From the UHGV virus genome UHGV-0213688: DNA of 61,436 bases. One strand, 5' to 3'. The notes under the pieces were generated by a model. That model was given only the letters and a program-made list of their open reading frames with translations, made no database searches and had not been told where the DNA came from. Below, piece after piece: positions 3,477 through 59,739 of the stretch. Both the position numbers and the translations under genes were made by a program. Origin of the DNA: a virus. The number at the start of each line of letters is the position of its first letter. The stretch's first letter is position 1.

Positions 3477-3477
3477 T

Positions 3478-16608: not shown

Positions 16609-16730
16609 ACTTGTCTCCAGGAAAAGGATTGATTTGTTTACTGTTGGTAGCCTTTCCCCGTGGAAGGCTGTTTAGGAACCCGTGTCCCTGATGTGTTGAA
16701 ACTTAACATCAGGGACGTCGGGATGTCAAC

Positions 16731-23568: not shown

Positions 23569-23750
23569 TTAATTTTCCTTTGGTCTTGGATAATAACAAT
23601 ACATAAAACAAACAGAATAAGACAGATGCACAGTCCTGTACTTGCAAAGATTCGGATAACCGTGGAAGGTTGTTCGACTACTGTATAGGTATAAAGCCCA
23701 GCGAACATTAACGTCGCAAATAAAAACAATCCGGCGTATAGTTTGGTCAT
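23565..23750 (-). CDS. small membrane protein (two transmembrane helices)
   Basis: 61 aa, two hydrophobic helices. Confidence 0.45.
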   Translation of the reverse strand: MTKLYAGLFLFATLMFAGLYTYTVVEQPSTVIRIFASTGLCICLILFVLCIVIIQDQRKIK

Positions 23751-23812
23751 TGTGTACCCCTCTTATTCGATGGGTACACAATACAATGAAGGATTATCTG
23801 ATAGCAAGGTTT

Positions 23813-26286: not shown

Positions 26287-26565
26287 TTATACTTCTTCCA
26301 AGAAATTGGGACTTACAAGACCATTATAAGGTACTTCATAGGTATCCATATCTTCGTTATACCCGTCTTTACCAAAGGTAACGATAACCGTATGTGGCCA
26401 TCCTTCGTGACAGCTGTATAAATCCTTCACCACCTTATTAACAGTAACAATAGTACCAGCTTTTAACTCCAGAAACTGCGTAACGTCATCCGGAGTATAG
26501 CCTACAGCGCCAATATCTGTGGTTAAACGATACTCTTTACCTTCAACAATATCTTCTACAAACAT
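26287..26565 (-). CDS. hypothetical protein
   Basis: 92 aa ORF between the two paralogues. Confidence 0.45.
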   Translation of the reverse strand: MFVEDIVEGKEYRLTTDIGAVGYTPDDVTQFLELKAGTIVTVNKVVKDLYSCHEGWPHTVIVTFGKDGYNEDMDTYEVPYNGLVSPNFLEEV

Positions 26566-26847
26566 TTAAGCCTCCGAACTAACATTAACTAAAGAATTTA
26601 CCCAACGACCTTCTTCGAAAGGAAACTTGCAGATATATTCGGATTTACCCATATCCTCATACCATTTGTCGTAATCGTCGCATTCGTCTATATAAGGTTC
26701 CTTTTCATATGCGTATAGATCTTCGCATTTATCAACCGCAAGCCAGTTTGCCCAGGCAGGTACTACAACCTGAGTCCCAAAATAGTTAACAATCTTTTTC
26801 CCCTCTTCTACACGCATTCTTCTTTCCTCTATATATTTTTCTGCCAT
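26566..26847 (-). CDS. hypothetical protein, paralogue of 25933..26235
   Basis: conserved W-A-N-[FW]-[IL]-A-V-D ... E-P core shared with 25933..26235. Confidence 0.5.
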   Translation of the reverse strand: MAEKYIEERRMRVEEGKKIVNYFGTQVVVPAWANWLAVDKCEDLYAYEKEPYIDECDDYDKWYEDMGKSEYICKFPFEEGRWVNSLVNVSSEA

Positions 26848-27185
26848 TCACGAACAGTTTCTAACATAGATTTATAATCGTCATCCCAATCATAATTCTC
26901 AACATCCTTTTGAAGTTTGGCGATCATTTCTTCAAGGCTGTTAGCTGGTAAGTAGCTTTCACCAAATGCAGCAAGACGTTTCTGATAATCGGGGCTTTGT
27001 TCATCCACCCAGCCAAATTCAGCTTCAAATGAATCACAACCAGAGCACGATCCATAAGAACCTTCACAAACCCCCAATACACCATCTTTTCTTATCAGGG
27101 CAAGCCATTCACCCTGATAACAACCAAACTCAACAAAATCTAATACTTCGCATCCAGCAGCTTCTAATGCTAATTGGTAAGACAT
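26829..27185 (-). CDS. hypothetical protein
   Basis: 118 aa acidic, Cys-containing ORF. Confidence 0.45.
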   Translation of the reverse strand: MSYQLALEAAGCEVLDFVEFGCYQGEWLALIRKDGVLGVCEGSYGSCSGCDSFEAEFGWVDEQSPDYQKRLAAFGESYLPANSLEEMIAKLQKDVENYDWDDDYKSMLETVREWQKNI

Positions 27186-27427
27186 TCTTCTTGCTCCTCT
27201 ACATATTTAGTGACACATTTTTGAAAATTAAGAACGATATTTTTCTCTTTTACGGAGTGAAATTTAACACGTTCCGGGCAGATAATCCAGCCTTTAAAAC
27301 GTTGAGTAGCGTCATTCCATGCAGCACGACCATAATAGCCGCGATATGGACCTAATCGCATTGTATTTACCTCTGTAACCACATTGTTGGAGGAGTTTGT
27401 CGTGGTGCTTGCGCTGGGGTCGCACAT
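27170..27427 (-). CDS. hypothetical protein
   Basis: 85 aa ORF at the start of the packed minus-strand early block. Confidence 0.4.
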   Translation of the reverse strand: MCDPSASTTTNSSNNVVTEVNTMRLGPYRGYYGRAAWNDATQRFKGWIICPERVKFHSVKEKNIVLNFQKCVTKYVEEQEECLTN

Positions 27428-27796
27428 AAATACCTCCTTGATGCTCTAAAAACTGGTGAGAATTGATAGAAATTGGTTGCATCCGCTTAAAGATGGTAGC
27501 TATGGGTAGCTACAAGACGGATTATACGTTGACGACTCAGAATTTACTACCAAAATCCATATATTTAGAAAGGATGAGTGCAATATATTCAAAAAGAAGG
27601 TAGGTGGGGTCATGGATGTAGGTGGATAGGCTATGTGACAGGTGAGATTTAGACAAGGACTTACTATCAGGATGGACAGGGCACGCCCCGGCGATCCAAG
27701 TACCTGGAAAAGGATGGGTCGGGTCGCGCGGCTGGGCCTGCGTGGGTCGGTGTGCGCTGTGCGAGCTGTGCGCGACGCTGTGCGCCTGTTTCGCCC

Positions 27797-27833
27797 GAGC
27801 TAATGCATTACCATTACCTTTGTGCATTAGCTC
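27797..27833. repeat. perfect 11-bp inverted repeat with 15-nt spacer in a GC-rich non-coding region
   Basis: GAGCTAATGCA-ttaccattacctttg-TGCATTAGCTC; spacer has direct repeat TTACC-ATTACC; no T-run follows. Confidence 0.6.
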
Positions 27834-27854
27834 GCTAGCGTGGCGCTGTGTGCG

Positions 27855-28013
27855 TTATAGCGCGGTTCCCCATTTCCGTTCGTGGCGCTCTGCATACCGC
27901 TGTTCCATTACTTCGTTGTATTTGCGATCCCATTTAGCATCACATACTTCGGTTACAATTAGTGCCACCAGTGGACCAACTACCGCAACGACCATCATGA
28001 TTAAAATTAACAT
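27855..28013 (-). CDS. small single-pass membrane protein (52 aa)
   Basis: ORF 27855..28133; preferred ATG 28013 with GGAGG 7 nt upstream; hydrophobic N-terminus MLILIMMVVAVVGPLVALIV. Confidence 0.4.
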   Translation of the reverse strand: MLILIMMVVAVVGPLVALIVTEVCDAKWDRKYNEVMEQRYAERHERKWGTAL

Positions 28014-28069
28014 TTTGTACCTCCGTATTTGGTTGATGTGTGTAGTATCCACCAGACCGATCATGTTGT

Positions 28070-28213
28070 CTAGGCATTTTGTGCTATTAATTGCGCGTAG
28101 AACTCGCGCCCTGTCTGCATAGCCTGCGCCCATGTAGTCTCTTCGTACTCCATGCGCATGACCTGCAATAATAACGCGTGCTGTGCGCGTGTAAGCGTGT
28201 ATTTGCGTGACAT
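28070..28213 (-). CDS. small hypothetical protein (47 aa, below ORF-track cutoff)
   Basis: ATG 28213 preceded by AGAGG; start separated by one nt from the upstream stop (TAA-C-ATG). Confidence 0.3.
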   Translation of the reverse strand: MSRKYTLTRAQHALLLQVMRMEYEETTWAQAMQTGREFYAQLIAQNA

Positions 28214-28214
28214 G

Positions 28215-28364
28215 TTAATATACCTCTACCAGTTTAACGATGGCGCTAAAATCAGCGATTCCAAGTTGCATCTCTGAGCGGACGAAACCTTCTGCGGCTG
28301 CACGGTTCGGAGCTTTAACGTCTCCAATGTAGTTACCGTAGTACATGACTTTAAACTTTCTCAT
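28215..28364 (-). CDS. small hypothetical protein (49 aa, below ORF-track cutoff)
   Basis: ATG 28364 with GGAGG 8 nt upstream; translationally coupled to next small ORF. Confidence 0.35.
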   Translation of the reverse strand: MRKFKVMYYGNYIGDVKAPNRAAAEGFVRSEMQLGIADFSAIVKLVEVY

Positions 28365-28587
28365 TTTATTTTCCTCCACCTTTCGGCTTTATCTTTCCTT
28401 TGACTATATAGTACGCCATGACTTGATCTATGTCTAGGCCAAACGTGGCATTTTAGCGTAGCGTTGCTGCAAAGCTGTAGATGCAAAACAATTCTAAAAT
28501 AGCACTTTTGGCCTATTCAATATCACGATGCAAGGCTATTATTACTTCAACAAAGCAATACTGCTTAACCACATTAAGGGTTACATC

Positions 28588-28740
28588 ATGGAATTCAAAT
28601 TAGTGGAACTCGAGTCCGGTAAAATAGCTGGTTATGTATCTGCCCCAAGCTGGGAGGAGGCTGAAATCTTCTTAATGGGTCAGTTCGATATGTACATTAG
28701 CGACATCTACAAGGAATACGATTTAGTCCAAATTAAGTGA
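28588..28740 (+). CDS. small hypothetical protein (50 aa)
   Basis: ORF 28528..28740; preferred ATG 28588 (MEFKLVEL) with AAGGG upstream. Confidence 0.4.
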   Translation: MEFKLVELESGKIAGYVSAPSWEEAEIFLMGQFDMYISDIYKEYDLVQIK

Positions 28741-28748
28741 TTTATATC

Positions 28749-28777
28749 TTGCCTAGTTGATCCAACTGGGCAATAAT
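28749..28777 (+). promoter_or_regulatory. sigma70-like promoter, copy 1 of a repeated element
   Basis: TTGCCT - 17 nt - AATAAT; spacer holds imperfect inverted repeat CCTAGTTGA/TCCAACTGG; 17-nt motif TGATTTATATCTTGCCT overlaps upstream stop codon. Confidence 0.45.
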
Positions 28778-28809
28778 AAGTCAACTTAAACAAAACGAGG
28801 ATATACATC

Positions 28810-29313
28810 ATGGCTACCAAACTAATTGGCAAGGGTGCTTTCACTAAAGCATACCTTCTGGATTCAGGTCGCGTACTTCTAAAATCTTGCGACCCTATTA
28901 AAGAATGCATGGCGTGGGGATGGTTTCCTGAGCATGAATTATTTCCCCATGTCACAATGATAGACACAGGAGTCTACGAAATGGATTATTATCCTCGTGT
29001 TCGCAGCTTAAAGAGCGCTTTACAACCTGAGCAATACGCACTCTATAAACAACTCCGCAGCTTGTGCGCAGGGTTAGAGATGCCGCGTAATACATATGAC
29101 AACTATAGCTATCTATATGATGTTTTCAGTAATAGCGACCTGGCCCAAGACATTAAAGATGTGCTCCTGGAAGCTTTGGATGCTTGCGCTAATATTGGTC
29201 CGCAAATGTGGTTTGAAATCAGTCCTCGCAATGTGGCGGTAAAAAACGGAAAACTTGTTTTGCTGGATGTTTTCTTTTGTACACAAGCTCTAAAGAATAT
29301 CAGAAATAGTTGA
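28810..29313 (+). CDS. hypothetical protein with protein-kinase-like motifs
   Basis: 167 aa; IGKGAFTKAY (Gly-rich-loop-like), LLK, SPRNVAV, LLDVFF (DFG-like); too short for a canonical kinase so function is tentative. Confidence 0.5.
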   Translation: MATKLIGKGAFTKAYLLDSGRVLLKSCDPIKECMAWGWFPEHELFPHVTMIDTGVYEMDYYPRVRSLKSALQPEQYALYKQLRSLCAGLEMPRNTYDNYSYLYDVFSNSDLAQDIKDVLLEALDACANIGPQMWFEISPRNVAVKNGKLVLLDVFFCTQALKNIRNS

Positions 29314-29321
29314 TTTATATC

Positions 29322-29350
29322 TTGCCTACTTCAACTTAGTAGGTAATAAT
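29322..29350 (+). promoter_or_regulatory. sigma70-like promoter, copy 2 of the repeated element
   Basis: identical TTGCCT - 17 nt - AATAAT geometry; spacer inverted repeat CCTACT/AGTAGG; same TGATTTATATCTTGCCT motif overlapping upstream stop. Confidence 0.45.
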
Positions 29351-29399
29351 AAGTACAACTTAGCAAGACTACTAAACAATCCAACAGAAGGAATATACC

Positions 29400-30247: not shown

Positions 30248-30574
30248 ATGAAAAAGTTCATCCGCTCTTACACTGACATCCGAGGCTTGCGAAAAGGAAC
30301 GGTTTATGAAGTTGCCGACTTCGGAAATAAAATATTGGTCCCTTATTACAATAAAGACGAAAAGCCGGTTCCAATGACCAGCGTATGCTTCACCCGCCTT
30401 ATGCAGGACAAGTTCCTTGTAGAAGTGCAACCGATGCGCAAAGAAGGCACATCCGAAATCTGGTTTGTGCACCGCCAGGAACCGGATAGTATTTGGTCCG
30501 ACTGGATAAGCGAAAAACTGTCGGGTATTATGTCCGACGATACGCTAGCCCACTTCACACCTGTACAGCTCTAA
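30248..30574 (+). CDS. hypothetical protein
   Basis: 108 aa ORF. Confidence 0.5.
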   Translation: MKKFIRSYTDIRGLRKGTVYEVADFGNKILVPYYNKDEKPVPMTSVCFTRLMQDKFLVEVQPMRKEGTSEIWFVHRQEPDSIWSDWISEKLSGIMSDDTLAHFTPVQL

Positions 30575-30953
30575 AATACTCCCGGGCCAGCCCTCCTACT
30601 GGTCCGGTTAACCGCGCAATAAAGTCCTCCTCCAATATCTCGCGATTAAGCGCATTATAGCTTGATATACCTTCCGATCACAATAGTTCAATAAATTTCC
30701 CTCAAAAGCACTTGACTTCTCATTTTTGATCTGCATCCGTTCAGGTTTATGAAAATTTATAGAGTTTATATAATGACCATAAACTCGTCAAATAATACCA
30801 ATAGGTACTATATACATTAATAATAAATCCTTATTTTATATATATTTATAGTTATTATTTACTATTAGTTTAATTATATTTGTTTTAGTTAGTTGACTGA
30901 AAGTTTATAAGTTTATAGGGAGCGAGCCAACCGAGATTTCATAAAATGCATAG

Positions 30954-31217
30954 TATAGTGGTATAGTGGCATTCACTATGTTTCACTACTACTACTAATT
31001 CTTTGTTTGAAAACGGGGTAATAAGGGGAAAACCGTAAACTTATAAACTTTGCTCTGTGTCAAAAATAAAATTAGTGAATAGTGGAATAGTGGTTTATAG
31101 TGGCAAACTTTTATAAAGCCAGTAACGGCGCACTATACACATTTTGCCCACTATGTACGCCACTAAGCACTATATTAAAACAATCCTTGCAAATAGCTAA
31201 TGTCTGTTTTATAGTGG
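30954..31217. repeat. iteron array: at least 6 direct and 4 inverted copies of core ATAGTGG
   Basis: direct copies at 30954, 30962, 31078, 31086, 31097, 31210; inverted CACTAT at 30974, 31131, 31149, 31169; flanked by inverted AAGTTTATAAGTTTA (30900 and 31035) in a 640-bp AT-rich ORF-free region. Confidence 0.6.
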
Positions 31218-31242
31218 CTTCACCAGTTGACTAGGAGGATTT

Positions 31243-31986
31243 ATGAGCGAAGAAACTATCACATCCGCACCATTAACATCTAAAACTGTGGTTAAAGATC
31301 TGTGTTTTGCTGCGTGGGTTGTGCAAGCTTGCTCGCAGTTGCGCGGTGCGCCAACCAAATCACAGGCGCTTGCTATGGTGGAGGATTACTTCAACGAAGA
31401 TGTGGAACAGCCTGTTAAAAAAGCTGTAAGACAAAAAGCGGGAAAGCTGGATGCAGAACGGGCGGCTTTCCTTGCATGGGTTAGCGATAAGCTGGGACAT
31501 GAACTGGATGCCAAAGAGCTTCGCAGCTATACGGGCAAATTCAATTACCACATGGGCAAGGGTAACGACCCATATGAAGAAGCATTTAAGGTAAAAGAAG
31601 ATAAGGGTAAGGCGGGGCGCAAGGAAAACGTCGAGCTTAAAGCATGGATAGAGCGCCAAGCCTTGCTCAAAGGGGATCCTCTGACAGATAAGGAAGCGGA
31701 TAAATTGACACATCGCTGGTACAGGATGCGCCGGAGCGGCGATGTTCGGGACTGGGATAATCGCGGTCGCTGGCCTACGTGTTCCCTGCACCATTACGAA
31801 ACCGCTACCGCTATCCGTGTCAAGCTTGGCGCTCATTGGGTAGACCTTGCACTATACAGGGATGCTGAACAGGCTAAAAATATTCTTCCGAACATTGATA
31901 ATTGGCTTATTAGCTTAAGACAGGGAAGGGAGCCGCAGGACGTTATGTTAGAAGTTAGTAACCATATTATCACAACTCCGCAATAA
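31243..31986 (+). CDS. hypothetical protein, first gene after iteron region
   Basis: 247 aa; AGGAGG RBS 5 nt upstream. Confidence 0.55.
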   Translation: MSEETITSAPLTSKTVVKDLCFAAWVVQACSQLRGAPTKSQALAMVEDYFNEDVEQPVKKAVRQKAGKLDAERAAFLAWVSDKLGHELDAKELRSYTGKFNYHMGKGNDPYEEAFKVKEDKGKAGRKENVELKAWIERQALLKGDPLTDKEADKLTHRWYRMRRSGDVRDWDNRGRWPTCSLHHYETATAIRVKLGAHWVDLALYRDAEQAKNILPNIDNWLISLRQGREPQDVMLEVSNHIITTPQ

Positions 31987-59609: not shown

Positions 59610-59739
59610 AGGAAAATCTCCATATATGGATTTGTTAAGCGGATGTAACCAACTGGTTACGAAGTAAAGCATACCCCTTAACACGATTTTTACAATCATC
59701 CAAATGTAAAGATTTTGTAAATTAGGATTGACAGTCAAT

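What the first reader, a model, noticed from the sequence alone, without database searches (positions are those of the whole stretch)
27600..27850. GC-rich, repeat-dense non-coding segment with an 11-bp perfect inverted repeat
This roughly 250-bp stretch is far more GC-rich than its surroundings and holds repeated CTGTGCG and GGTAGGTGG motifs plus the dyad GAGCTAATGCA-N15-TGCATTAGCTC (27797-27833). The only ORF across it (27537..27827, minus) translates to low-complexity His/Ser/Pro sequence and has no RBS. The segment may be a structured RNA, a protein-binding site or a second origin-like element.
Basis: seen in the sequence. Interest (0 to 1): 0.45.

Follow-up and report, generated by a model that had tools for sequence, protein, structure and literature searches.

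The report
Conserved untranslated hairpin and C-rich spacer
This GC-rich stretch is the upstream half of a roughly 430-base gene-free, strongly conserved block inside an early operon of a Seuratvirus coliphage; it most likely acts as transcription punctuation (a stem-loop followed by a C-rich tract of the kind the host factor Rho uses), not as a gene, a folded RNA or a replication origin.

Summary
27600-27850 is 61-62% GC against a 44.6% genome and holds the genome's GC-richest 80-nt window. It also holds three tandem GCTGTGCG copies and the longest perfect inverted repeat in the window (12 bp, not 11; 27796-27834).

It is part of a gene-free block, 27428-27857, between two minus-strand early genes of a Seuratvirus phage. 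ORFs across the block are not conserved. The block is 94-99% identical in about 27 relatives, while the genes around it are mosaic.

The hairpin starts 20 nt after the upstream stop codon and has no U-tract. It is kept by compensatory changes in Salmonella phage STP-SP5 and by G·U wobbles on the sense RNA in close relatives.

Downstream, the sense RNA carries the largest C>G tract of any sense-oriented RNA in the 61-kb window. Distant relatives and module-swapped relatives keep this property.

This matches the published layout of E. coli Rho-dependent 3' ends. My best reading is a Rho-dependent attenuator plus a 3'-protective stem-loop (confidence about 0.4, no experimental data).

No global RNA fold and no Rfam hit were found. 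Eight viable relatives replace the GC-rich core, which argues against an origin.

Ordinary to moderately interesting.

The parts
27855..28016 (-). Upstream early gene: a 53-aa small membrane-like protein, ATG at 28016, stop codon at 27855-27857. It is the third small gene of the leftward early unit that starts near 28400-28520.
   Evidence: ORF list and sequence. PHROG 7482, unknown function. Promoter-like sites on the minus strand at 28520-28491 and 28436-28408. Relatives carry a different gene at this place, and the conserved block always begins within 7 nt of that gene's stop codon.
27835..27854 (-). Conserved 5' edge of the block. The sense RNA reads (UAA)CGCACACAGCGCCACGCUAG and holds the first CGCACAG-type unit and the palindrome GCTAGC.
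   Evidence: Conserved in the close relatives and, as AACGCACACAGCG, in STP-SP5; yong3 reads CAGCACACAGTG.
27796..27834 (-). Stem-loop with a 12-bp perfect stem and a 15-nt loop (sense RNA loop CAAAGGUAAUGGUAA). No U-tract follows it.
   Evidence: The terminator scan finds no intrinsic terminator here. STP-SP5 keeps a 10-bp stem with a different upper half (GAGCTAGCCC/GGGCTAGCTC), and yong3 has a weaker, different hairpin at the same place. Two substitutions in close relatives give G·U on the sense (minus) RNA but A·C on the plus strand.
27742..27795 (-). GC-richest segment. The sense RNA holds an array of CGCACAG(C) units, which on the plus strand read GCTGTGCG x3 exact plus degenerate copies, spaced 9 and 12 nt apart.
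   Evidence: Three or four GCACAGC-type units are also present in STP-SP5 and yong3. The segment is absent from the group-2 relatives.
27683..27741 (-). GC-rich tract with C>G on the sense RNA. It holds the boxes ACCCGACCCA and GGUACUU, which are invariant in all three lineages.
   Evidence: TGGGTCGGGT occurs exactly only once in the window.
27560..27682 (-). C-rich, G-poor untranslated tract on the sense RNA (C 40, G 11, 29 YC dimers in 123 nt). It holds CCACCUAC twice and UGUCCAUCCUGAUAGUA. This is the proposed Rho-loading (rut-like) region.
   Evidence: 27522-27827 is the largest sense-strand C>G bubble of the window, with a maximum %C-%G of 30.8; 27567-27646 has 30 G and 5 C on the plus strand. 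The property is retained in SeppeHuegi, STP-SP5, yong3, the group-2 variants and the HNH variants.
27428..27559 (-). Left part of the block: leader and promoter-like region of the downstream gene. On the minus strand it has a perfect -10 hexamer, TATAAT (27526-27521), with a weak -35. A plus-strand promoter-like site overlaps it (TTGACG-N16-CAAAAT, 27529-27556). It also holds the partial palindrome TGACGACTCA, the palindrome GTAGCTAC, and the Shine-Dalgarno sequence AAGGAGG at 27433-27439.
   Evidence: Sequence and scan. Conservation of TGAC.A.TCAGAATTT in the three lineages. In WildeMaa, phiG7 and Dru_SM1 this part is replaced by an HNH homing-endonuclease gene that carries its own promoter-like sequence. 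The promoter function is inferred, not shown.
27170..27427 (-). Downstream gene (85-aa ORF, PHROG 24875, unknown function). The core from Met23 (27361) onwards is conserved together with the block.
   Evidence: The core is 94-99% identical to relatives. The first 22 codons are only 80-86% identical, and many relatives lack them.

Best explanation
The segment is the 5' half of an untranslated intercistronic control region in the leftward early operon of a Seuratvirus.

Proposed mechanism. Transcription starts at the divergent early promoters near 28.4-28.5 kb and reads three small genes. Twenty nucleotides after the last stop codon the RNA forms a stable 12-bp stem-loop that has no U-tract. Behind it comes about 270 nt of ribosome-free RNA in which C exceeds G: first the GC-rich CGCACAG-repeat stretch, then a strongly G-poor tract. 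I propose that host Rho loads on this naked C-rich RNA and stops or attenuates transcription before the next gene at 27427. Exonucleases would then trim the RNA back to the stem-loop, which protects the immediate-early mRNA. The left part of the block (27428-27559) would supply the leader, and possibly a promoter, for the downstream genes.

Shown: the hairpin and its evolutionary maintenance; the lack of a conserved ORF; the extreme and conserved C>G composition on the sense strand; the position directly behind a stop codon; strong conservation inside a mosaic neighbourhood; and modular replacement in relatives.

Inferred: that Rho acts here, that the hairpin marks a 3' end, and that a promoter lies in the left part.
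For: (1) Context. The window is a Seuratvirus genome. The genes on both sides of the block are on the minus strand. Minus-strand promoter-like sites lie at 28520-28491 and 28436-28408.

(2) Untranslated. ORFs across the block are not conserved and have no family.

(3) Hairpin. It is the longest perfect inverted repeat in the genome, with 0.08 expected by chance, at -17.9 kcal/mol and z = -5.5. No T-run follows and it is not called as an intrinsic terminator. STP-SP5 keeps it with compensatory changes, and yong3 has a different hairpin at the same place. Two independent substitutions in close relatives give G·U on the sense RNA and A·C on the other strand.

(4) Composition. 27522-27827 is the largest sense-strand C>G bubble in the 61-kb window, with a best 78-nt window of C 29 / G 5. 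Flanking coding RNA has the opposite bias.

(5) Conservation of the composition. The C>G tract is retained in 70%-identity relatives and in relatives that swapped neighbouring modules: best 78-nt windows hold C 29-34 against G 3-12.

(6) Published layout. [quoted passage not shown]

(7) A sister element. The rightward early operon has the same layout: stop codon at 30574, a 9-bp hairpin at 30582-30607 without a U-tract, then the second largest sense C>G bubble.

(8) Group-2 relatives. They replace the GC core with a module in which the depositors of OL960573 annotated a terminator followed by a promoter.

(9) A distant analogue. In the Craquatrovirus PSTCR7 the first early gene is followed by a classical intrinsic terminator and then 600 nt of G-poor gene-free sequence.

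(10) Constraint. The block is 94-99% identical to relatives, like the conserved core gene, while adjacent sequence is 77-86% identical or swapped.
Against: There are no transcript data for any Seuratvirus in the searched literature.

The C-rich tract is not predicted to be clearly less structured than background: mean unpaired probability 0.45 against 0.39 +/- 0.06, and 15% of background segments reach that value.

The first 110 nt behind the hairpin are GC-rich but not G-poor (C 46, G 33), so the best rut-like tract starts rather far from the hairpin.

A Rho site needs composition rather than sequence. Near-invariant boxes such as ACCCGACCCA, UGUCCAUCCUGAUAGUA and the CGCACAG repeats suggest additional, specific binding partners that this model does not explain.

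The G·U argument rests on only two substitution events, and a third relative carries a substitution that breaks a pair on both strands.

No consensus-grade minus-strand promoter was found inside the block, so how the downstream genes are expressed is left open.
Confidence: 0.4

Rival explanations
1. The block is an RNA processing, stability and leader element that does not involve termination. The stem-loop would be an RNase III or exonuclease barrier separating differently stable parts of one long early transcript, as in the T7 early region. The rest would be the long 5' leader of the downstream genes, holding binding sites for a phage or host RNA-binding factor (the CGCACAG repeats and the C-rich boxes).
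For: Compensatory change maintains the hairpin, and the wobbles fall on the sense strand. Invariant sequence boxes and repeat units are conserved at 70% overall identity, which is more than a rut site requires. The predicted fold pairs ACCUUCUUU-type sequence with the Shine-Dalgarno region of the downstream gene.
Against: A 12-bp stem is short for RNase III. No conserved structure was found beyond the hairpin. The proposed Shine-Dalgarno pairing partner is not kept in STP-SP5 (read). This model does not explain why the composition is the most extreme C>G tract of the genome, or why the other early operon carries a twin layout.
Confidence: 0.2
2. A stable non-coding RNA is made from the block. 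It could be a 3'-UTR-derived or processed sense RNA, or a G-rich antisense RNA started at the conserved plus-strand promoter-like site at 27529-27556. It would act as a regulator, a decoy, or an R-loop primer.
For: The block is strongly conserved. The plus-strand site TTGACG-N16-CAAAAT is kept as CTGACA..CTAAAT in STP-SP5 and GTGACG..TAAAAT in yong3. The plus strand holds several (C/A)AGGAUG motifs of the kind repeated in CsrB-type RNAs, and G-clusters that would favour R-loops (the CsrB comparison is from my own knowledge).
Against: No Rfam family matches. Fold z-scores are not significant on either strand. Covariation is absent outside the hairpin. No terminator ends such an RNA on either strand. 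Most of the GGA motifs I compared by eye are broken in STP-SP5 (read). The G-run pattern needed for a G-quadruplex is broken in VogelGryff and STP-SP5. The HNH-carrying relatives have lost the plus-strand promoter region but keep the GC-rich core. The hairpin substitutions give A·C mismatches on the plus strand.
Confidence: 0.13
3. It is a DNA-level element. The GCTGTGCG array plus the dyad would bind a phage or host protein as an origin of replication, an operator array, or another binding platform.
For: There are three exact and two degenerate GCTGTGCG units at 9-12 bp spacing, about one helical turn. A long dyad lies beside them. Related units are kept in STP-SP5 and yong3. The region sits close to the cumulative GC-skew minimum.
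Against: The array and the left arm of the dyad are absent from 8 of 36 related records, all isolated and propagated phages, where about 250 nt of unrelated sequence replaces them. No AT-rich unwinding region adjoins the array; the local GC content is 62-75%. The skew minimum is explained by the flip in gene orientation at 28.4 kb. The arms of the dyad change sequence while keeping their pairing, which is the signature of a folded strand rather than of a sequence-specific palindromic binding site. A far better origin-like region, with 7 clustered ATAGTGG iterons next to 24% GC DNA, lies at 30.7-31.2 kb.
Confidence: 0.1
4. The sequence has little function of its own. It would be a conserved recombination joint or leftover spacer between shuffled early-gene cassettes, and its conservation would reflect recent common ancestry.
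For: Mosaic boundaries fall exactly at its edges. The upstream gene is swapped at the stop codon, and the downstream sequence is variable. Internal modules are exchanged between relatives.
Against: The block is 94-99% identical, while the adjacent sequence at 27362-27427 in the same genomes is 80-86% identical. Blocks stay invariant at 70% overall identity. The hairpin is maintained by compensatory change. The composition is conserved even where the sequence is not.
Confidence: 0.1
5. It encodes a protein: the 96-aa minus-strand ORF or one of the plus-strand ORFs.
For: Several GenBank records annotate a CDS here.
Against: Annotated lengths and frames differ between records (126, 96, 92 or 58 aa, or none). 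Single-base indels occur in the window, CAjan and OddieOddie. There is no Shine-Dalgarno sequence, and the start codon lies inside the hairpin stem. There is no Pfam or PHROG hit. Only 5 clusters of 71-153 aa were found among 5.8 billion proteins. In the group-2 module, the differences I counted by eye between SA126VB and GottfriedDienst in the candidate plus-strand ORF are mostly non-synonymous.
Confidence: 0.02

Closest known systems
E. coli Rho-dependent terminators with a protective 3' stem-loop (Dar and Sorek 2018, PMC6061677). Classical phage examples are lambda tR1 and tL1 (from my own knowledge).
   Same: A stable stem-loop right after a coding region with no U-tract. C>G sequence follows immediately downstream. 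The RNA is untranslated. The element sits a few hundred nucleotides into an early operon, and a twin lies on the divergent early operon, as tL1 and tR1 do in lambda.
   Different: Rho dependence is untested. No boxA next to the hairpin and no recognisable N-like antiterminator, so it is not a nut-tR1 copy. The 15-nt loop is long. Sequence conservation and the repeated CGCACAG units exceed what a rut site needs.
PeSL cassettes (promoter-early stem-loop) of T4-type phages (Arbiol et al. 2010, PMC2839356; Comeau et al. 2014, PMC4122927)
   Same: A conserved non-coding cassette with a stem-loop and promoter-like sequence lies between small non-essential early genes. Gene swaps between relatives have their breakpoints at the cassette.
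   Different: PeSLs are short and present in many copies per genome. This block is about 430 nt and single-copy; only a 30-nt motif pair recurs, at 59622-59652. The PeSL stem-loop is an efficient terminator next to a strong sigma-70 promoter, and neither activity is shown here.
Iteron-type phage replication origins, such as lambda ori (from my own knowledge)
   Same: Short direct repeats at about one helical turn, with a nearby inverted repeat.
   Different: No AT-rich unwinding element. The repeats are only 8 bp. The array is dispensable in 8 relatives. A better candidate lies at 30.7-31.2 kb.
RNase III processing hairpins of the T7 early region (from my own knowledge)
   Same: Intercistronic hairpins in an early polycistronic RNA that leave a protective 3' stem on the upstream message.
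   Different: T7 sites are longer, irregular stems of about two helical turns with internal loops. Here the stem is a perfect 12 bp with a large loop.

Membership tests
Rho-dependent terminator (E. coli type) | C-rich, G-poor tract of about 70-80 nt or more on the nascent RNA | tested here: met
   Sense RNA of 27560-27682 has C 40 and G 11. The best 78-nt window has C 29 and G 5. This is the largest sense-strand C>G bubble of the window, and relatives keep it.
Rho-dependent terminator (E. coli type) | The tract is not covered by ribosomes (untranslated) | tested here: met
   The tract begins after a stop codon. No conserved ORF, frame-breaking indels, no protein family.
Rho-dependent terminator (E. 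coli type) | The loading tract has little secondary structure | tested here: inconclusive
   Mean unpaired probability is 0.45 against a background of 0.39 +/- 0.06, and 15% of background segments reach it.
Rho-dependent terminator (E. coli type) | A stable stem-loop without a U-tract just upstream of the C>G tract, marking the steady-state 3' end (Dar and Sorek 2018) | tested here: met
   The structure and its position are met. Whether it is an actual 3' end was not tested.
Rho-dependent terminator (E. coli type) | Termination depends on Rho (bicyclomycin or a rho mutant causes read-through) | not testable with these tools
   No Seuratvirus transcriptome was found in the literature searches.
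Intrinsic (Rho-independent) terminator | GC-rich stem-loop followed directly by a U-run | tested here: not met
   The sense RNA continues GGCGAAACAGG after the stem. The scan finds no terminator at this site, whereas classical ones exist at 3477, 14406, 34604 and 56687.
Lambda-type nut site (boxA + boxB) | boxA (YGCUCUUWA) a few nucleotides upstream of the hairpin on the sense RNA | tested here: not met
   No minus-strand match with one mismatch or fewer between 27428 and 28400.
Any curated RNA family (Rfam 15), including preQ1 riboswitches | Match to a covariance model | tested here: not met
   Nothing in the block at E <= 10. Nothing in the whole window at gathering scores.
Iteron-type replication origin | An array of direct repeats next to an AT-rich unwinding region, retained wherever the replication module is retained | tested here: not met
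   The repeats are present, but local GC is 62-75% and the array is missing from 8 related phages. I did not compare the replication proteins of those phages.
PeSL regulatory cassette | Short cassette present in many copies per genome, made of a strong sigma-70 promoter plus a terminating stem-loop | tested here: not met
   The block is single-copy. No consensus-grade minus-strand promoter is present. Only the property of lying at mosaic breakpoints is shared.
Protein-coding gene | Reading frame conserved across relatives | tested here: not met

The most novel reading that the evidence does not exclude
The hairpin, the CGCACAG repeats and the invariant C-rich boxes together form a specific cis-acting RNA or DNA module recognised by a still unknown Seuratvirus factor. 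Examples would be a phage-specific antitermination or processive-regulation site that gates read-through from the immediate-early genes into the lysis and structural part of the leftward unit, or an R-loop-type secondary origin fired from the conserved plus-strand promoter-like site.
Probability: 0.12. Interest if true: 0.55.

Novelty: new member of a known kind. Interest (0 to 1): 0.3.

Why it matters
If the reading is right, it gives the first map of early-gene timing in Queuovirinae coliphages. These include five BASEL collection phages and the model phages for 7-deazaguanine DNA. Each divergent early operon would be punctuated by a stem-loop plus a C-rich tract, as at lambda tL1 and tR1, which implies dependence on host Rho and probably a phage way to override it.

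Practically, it tells annotators that the 'hypothetical proteins' called across this block in many GenBank records are spurious. It also marks the block as a breakpoint for cassette exchange, including insertion of a homing endonuclease.

It is not a major surprise. Long conserved regulatory gaps are common in phage early regions.

Tried and rejected
Rfam at a permissive E-value on 26500-29000 and at gathering scores on the whole window gave nothing. The tRNA/tmRNA scan gave nothing.

Global RNA folding of both strands and RNAalifold on six relatives showed no significant or covarying structure apart from the hairpin.

Host or plasmid origin of the GC-rich core: no match in 5,426 E. coli genomes or in 72,556 plasmids.

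Searches of IMG/VR and metagenomes with conserved motifs gave only five more close relatives at 85-96% identity, one of which is the slur01 genome itself. They added no new diversity.

CsrA-sponge idea (AGGAUG motifs on the plus strand): most of the motifs I compared by eye are not conserved in STP-SP5.

G-quadruplex idea (GGG x4 at 27716-27746): the runs are broken in VogelGryff and in STP-SP5.

Operator regulon idea: the TGAC..GTCAGAATTT box and the loop motif GGTAATGGTAA have no other copies.

Homology with the analogous leaders of Nonagvirus 9g and Craquatrovirus PSTCR7: k-mer matches were at chance level only.

Neighbouring proteins gave no functional hint. The 'Hfq' and 'HicB' labels in record PQ202980 are not backed by Pfam. 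PHROGs gives only a weak HicB-like hit, E = 0.003.

Literature: nothing on Seuratvirus transcription, promoters or this region.

Cos or pac site: rejected only on position. The block lies about 6 kb from the terminase genes, and its place in GenBank records varies with arbitrary record starts.

Full report
WHAT THE WINDOW IS. The 501 bases around the finding match 36 phage records, all but one of them Seuratvirus (Queuovirinae) siphophages of E. coli and related hosts. Examples are VogelGryff, Seurat, CSP1, CAjan and slur01, at 86-97% identity. Salmonella phage STP-SP5 and Hafnia phage yong3 match at about 70%. Genes run leftwards (minus strand) from about 28.4 kb down to 0.3 kb: small early genes, then lysis, packaging and structural genes. 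They run rightwards from 28.5 to 56.7 kb: replication and queuosine-pathway genes. Promoter-like sites for the leftward unit lie at 28520-28491 and 28436-28408.

CHECK OF THE OBSERVATION. The description is accurate.
- GC is 0.615-0.620 in 27600-27899 against 0.446 overall, and 27716-27795 is the GC-richest 80-nt window of the genome.
- The dyad is 12 bp, not 11: CGAGCTAATGCA-N15-TGCATTAGCTCG, 27796-27834. It is the longest perfect inverted repeat in the window, with 0.08 expected in random sequence.
- GCTGTGCG occurs three times in tandem, at spacings of 9 and 12 nt. The window holds 7 copies against 2 expected.
- GTAGGTGG occurs twice, which alone is not significant.
- The 96-aa ORF exists, and its start codon sits inside the hairpin stem.

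EXTENT AND CODING STATUS. The feature belongs to a gene-free block, 27428-27857. The block lies between the stop codon of a 53-aa gene (27855..28016, minus) and the start of an 85-aa ORF (27170..27427, minus).
- GenBank annotators have called 126, 96, 92 and 58-aa proteins or nothing across it, and sometimes plus-strand ORFs.
- The alignment shows single-base indels in the window, CAjan and OddieOddie, plus a 30-nt indel.
- The ORF has no Pfam or PHROG family.
- Among 5.8 billion proteins it matches only five clusters, of 71-153 aa.
The block is non-coding.

CONSERVATION AND MODULARITY. The block is 94-99% identical to the close relatives, the same as the conserved core of the downstream gene. 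The 66 nt between them are 80-86% identical. The next gene is 77% identical or absent, and the upstream gene is replaced by unrelated genes exactly at its stop codon. The block is therefore under constraint and is also a mosaic breakpoint. Three architectures exist.
- (i) The full block, in about 23 records.
- (ii) 'Group 2': SA126VB, GottfriedDienst, SLUR25, SLUR63, SHIN8 and ECP2304, plus Dru_SM1 and Skure. Here 27683-27800, meaning the GC-rich core and the left arm of the dyad, is replaced by about 250 nt of unrelated non-coding sequence. That sequence has another 11-12-bp hairpin and a TATAAT. The depositors of OL960573 annotated it as terminator plus promoter.
- (iii) HNH variants: WildeMaa, phiG7, SA80RD and Dru_SM1. 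Here the left part, 27428-27616, is replaced by a homing-endonuclease gene with its own promoter-like sequence.
The core has no match in E. coli genomes or plasmids.

THE HAIRPIN IS SELECTED, PROBABLY AS SENSE RNA. STP-SP5 has GAGCTAGCCC-N13-GGGCTAGCTC at the same place: the same lower stem and a fully different but complementary upper stem. yong3 has a different, weaker hairpin there. In close relatives two substitutions, one in each arm, give G·U on the minus-strand RNA and A·C on the plus strand. A third substitution breaks a pair on both strands. The minus strand is the sense strand of the flanking genes. No U-run follows on either strand, and no intrinsic terminator is called.

NO LARGER STRUCTURED RNA. 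The block folds no better than shuffles: z = -1.5 sense and -0.6 antisense. RNAalifold over six relatives gives an unfavourable covariation term. Rfam gives nothing.

COMPOSITION ON THE SENSE STRAND. Coding RNA in this phage has G>C, and the block reverses that. 27522-27827 is the largest C>G 'bubble' of all sense-oriented RNA in the window, with a maximum of 30.8% (C 29, G 5 in 78 nt). The tract 27560-27682 has C 40, G 11 and 29 YC dimers. The same property is present in STP-SP5, yong3, group 2 and the HNH variants, so it is conserved even where the sequence is not. The predicted accessibility of the tract is only slightly above background, 0.45 against 0.39 +/- 0.06.

BEST EXPLANATION. The layout is: stop codon, then a stable stem-loop without a U-tract, then C>G untranslated RNA. 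[quoted passage not shown] I therefore read the finding as a Rho-dependent attenuator with its protective stem-loop. It would close an immediate-early transcript that encodes three small proteins. The left part of the block would serve as the leader, and possibly the promoter, for the downstream genes. Three observations fit this reading.
- The rightward early operon carries a twin: stop codon at 30574, a 9-bp hairpin at 30582-30607 (region z = -2.8), no U-tract, then the second-largest sense C>G bubble.
- The group-2 replacement module was independently annotated as terminator plus promoter.
- In the distant Craquatrovirus PSTCR7 the first early gene is followed by a textbook intrinsic terminator and 600 nt of G-poor gene-free sequence.
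Rho action itself is an inference. My confidence is about 0.4.

WHAT THE MODEL LEAVES UNEXPLAINED. Several boxes are invariant at 70% overall identity: ACCCGACCCA, GGUACUU, UGUCCAUCCUGAUAGUA, CCCCACC.ACC, and the three to five GCACAGC units on both sides of the hairpin. This points to specific partners, and it keeps alive the rivals of a processing or leader element, a non-coding RNA, or a DNA-binding platform.

THE ORIGIN IDEA. The array is dispensable in eight relatives, and there is no AT-rich neighbour. The GC-skew minimum coincides with the flip in gene orientation. A much more origin-like region, with seven clustered ATAGTGG repeats next to 24% GC DNA, sits at 30.7-31.2 kb.

COMPARISON WITH KNOWN SYSTEMS.
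- It works like a lambda tL1/tR1-type early Rho terminator, but there is no boxA by the hairpin, so it is not a nut site.
- It resembles T4-type PeSL cassettes in lying at shuffling breakpoints, but it is long and single-copy.
- It fails the tests for an intrinsic terminator, an Rfam family, an iteron origin and a gene.

VERDICT. The feature is real, conserved and non-coding. It is most likely transcription punctuation of a known general kind, not described for this phage group. Interest is moderate to low. The decisive data would be Term-seq and RNA-seq with and without bicyclomycin on a BASEL Seuratvirus.

Noticed in passing
whole window (45 sites, e.g. 2489, 27376, 28566, 59777): The 8-mer TGTGGTTA occurs 45 times on both strands, inside and between genes, about once every 1.4 kb. 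Shuffles give 2.5 +/- 1.6 (maximum 8). It is by far the commonest 8-mer; the next unrelated one has 16 copies. Its only flank preference is A at +1 and A-rich at -3 to -1. Relatives have the same density, 0.6-0.76 per kb. It resembles a DnaA box (TTATCCACA) but does not match it. Its function is unknown, and it looks like a genome-wide recognition motif.
   Followed up: partly
window 30700-31220: A gene-free region with 24% GC (30700-30900) is followed by 7 clustered copies of ATAGTGG (30955, 30963, 31079, 31087, 31097, 31211, and 31148 on the minus strand). The whole window holds 9 copies. This is the best origin-like or operator-array candidate, just upstream of 31243..31986 and the primase gene.
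   Followed up: partly
window 30572-30700 (+): A twin of the finding lies on the rightward early operon. The stop codon at 30572-30574 is followed by a 9-bp hairpin at 30582-30607 (CCGGGCCAG-N8-CUGGUCCGG, one G·U pair) with no U-tract, then C-rich, G-poor RNA (C 25, G 11 in 89 nt). This is the second-largest sense C>G bubble of the window.
   Followed up: partly
window 59622-59652 (+) and 27473-27564: The motif pair ATATATGGATTT and TTAAGCGGATG(C/T)AACCAA occurs twice. At 59.6 kb the two halves are adjacent, in the leader of a Gly-rich protein gene, next to the near-palindrome GTAACCAGTTGGTTAC. In the finding's block they are in the opposite orientation relative to the flanking genes and are split by 62 nt.
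   Followed up: partly
window 28731-28796 and 29304-29369: A 66-nt direct repeat (73% identity) flanks the gene 28810..29313. Each copy holds an inverted repeat, and the first holds a promoter-like site. Among Seuratviruses that 167-aa protein is found only in Seurat, VogelGryff and this phage. It is about 50% identical to an early protein of T7-like phages that some records label serine/threonine kinase. This looks like a cassette inserted between repeated regulatory sequences.
   Followed up: no
window 23749-23782 and 16684-16716 (-): There are two more perfect 11-bp hairpins with long loops and no U-run in the leftward unit. The one at 23749-23782 encloses a Shine-Dalgarno-like GAGGGG and an ATG on the sense RNA, which suggests translational masking.
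   Followed up: no
window 27362-27427 (-): The first 22 codons of the 85-aa ORF are only 80-86% identical to relatives and are missing from many of them. tblastn matches start at residue 23, which has its own AGAGG ribosome-binding site. The conserved protein may therefore start at Met23 (27361). The 'RNA-binding protein Hfq' label for this gene in PQ202980 has no Pfam support.
   Followed up: partly
relatives L012 (phiG7), L013 (WildeMaa), L014 (Dru_SM1): A free-standing HNH homing-endonuclease gene is inserted between the C-rich tract and the downstream gene, replacing window 27428-27616. It carries its own TTGAAA-N17-TAAAAT promoter-like sequence. Its right junction repeats the box TGGGTCGGGT.
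   Followed up: no
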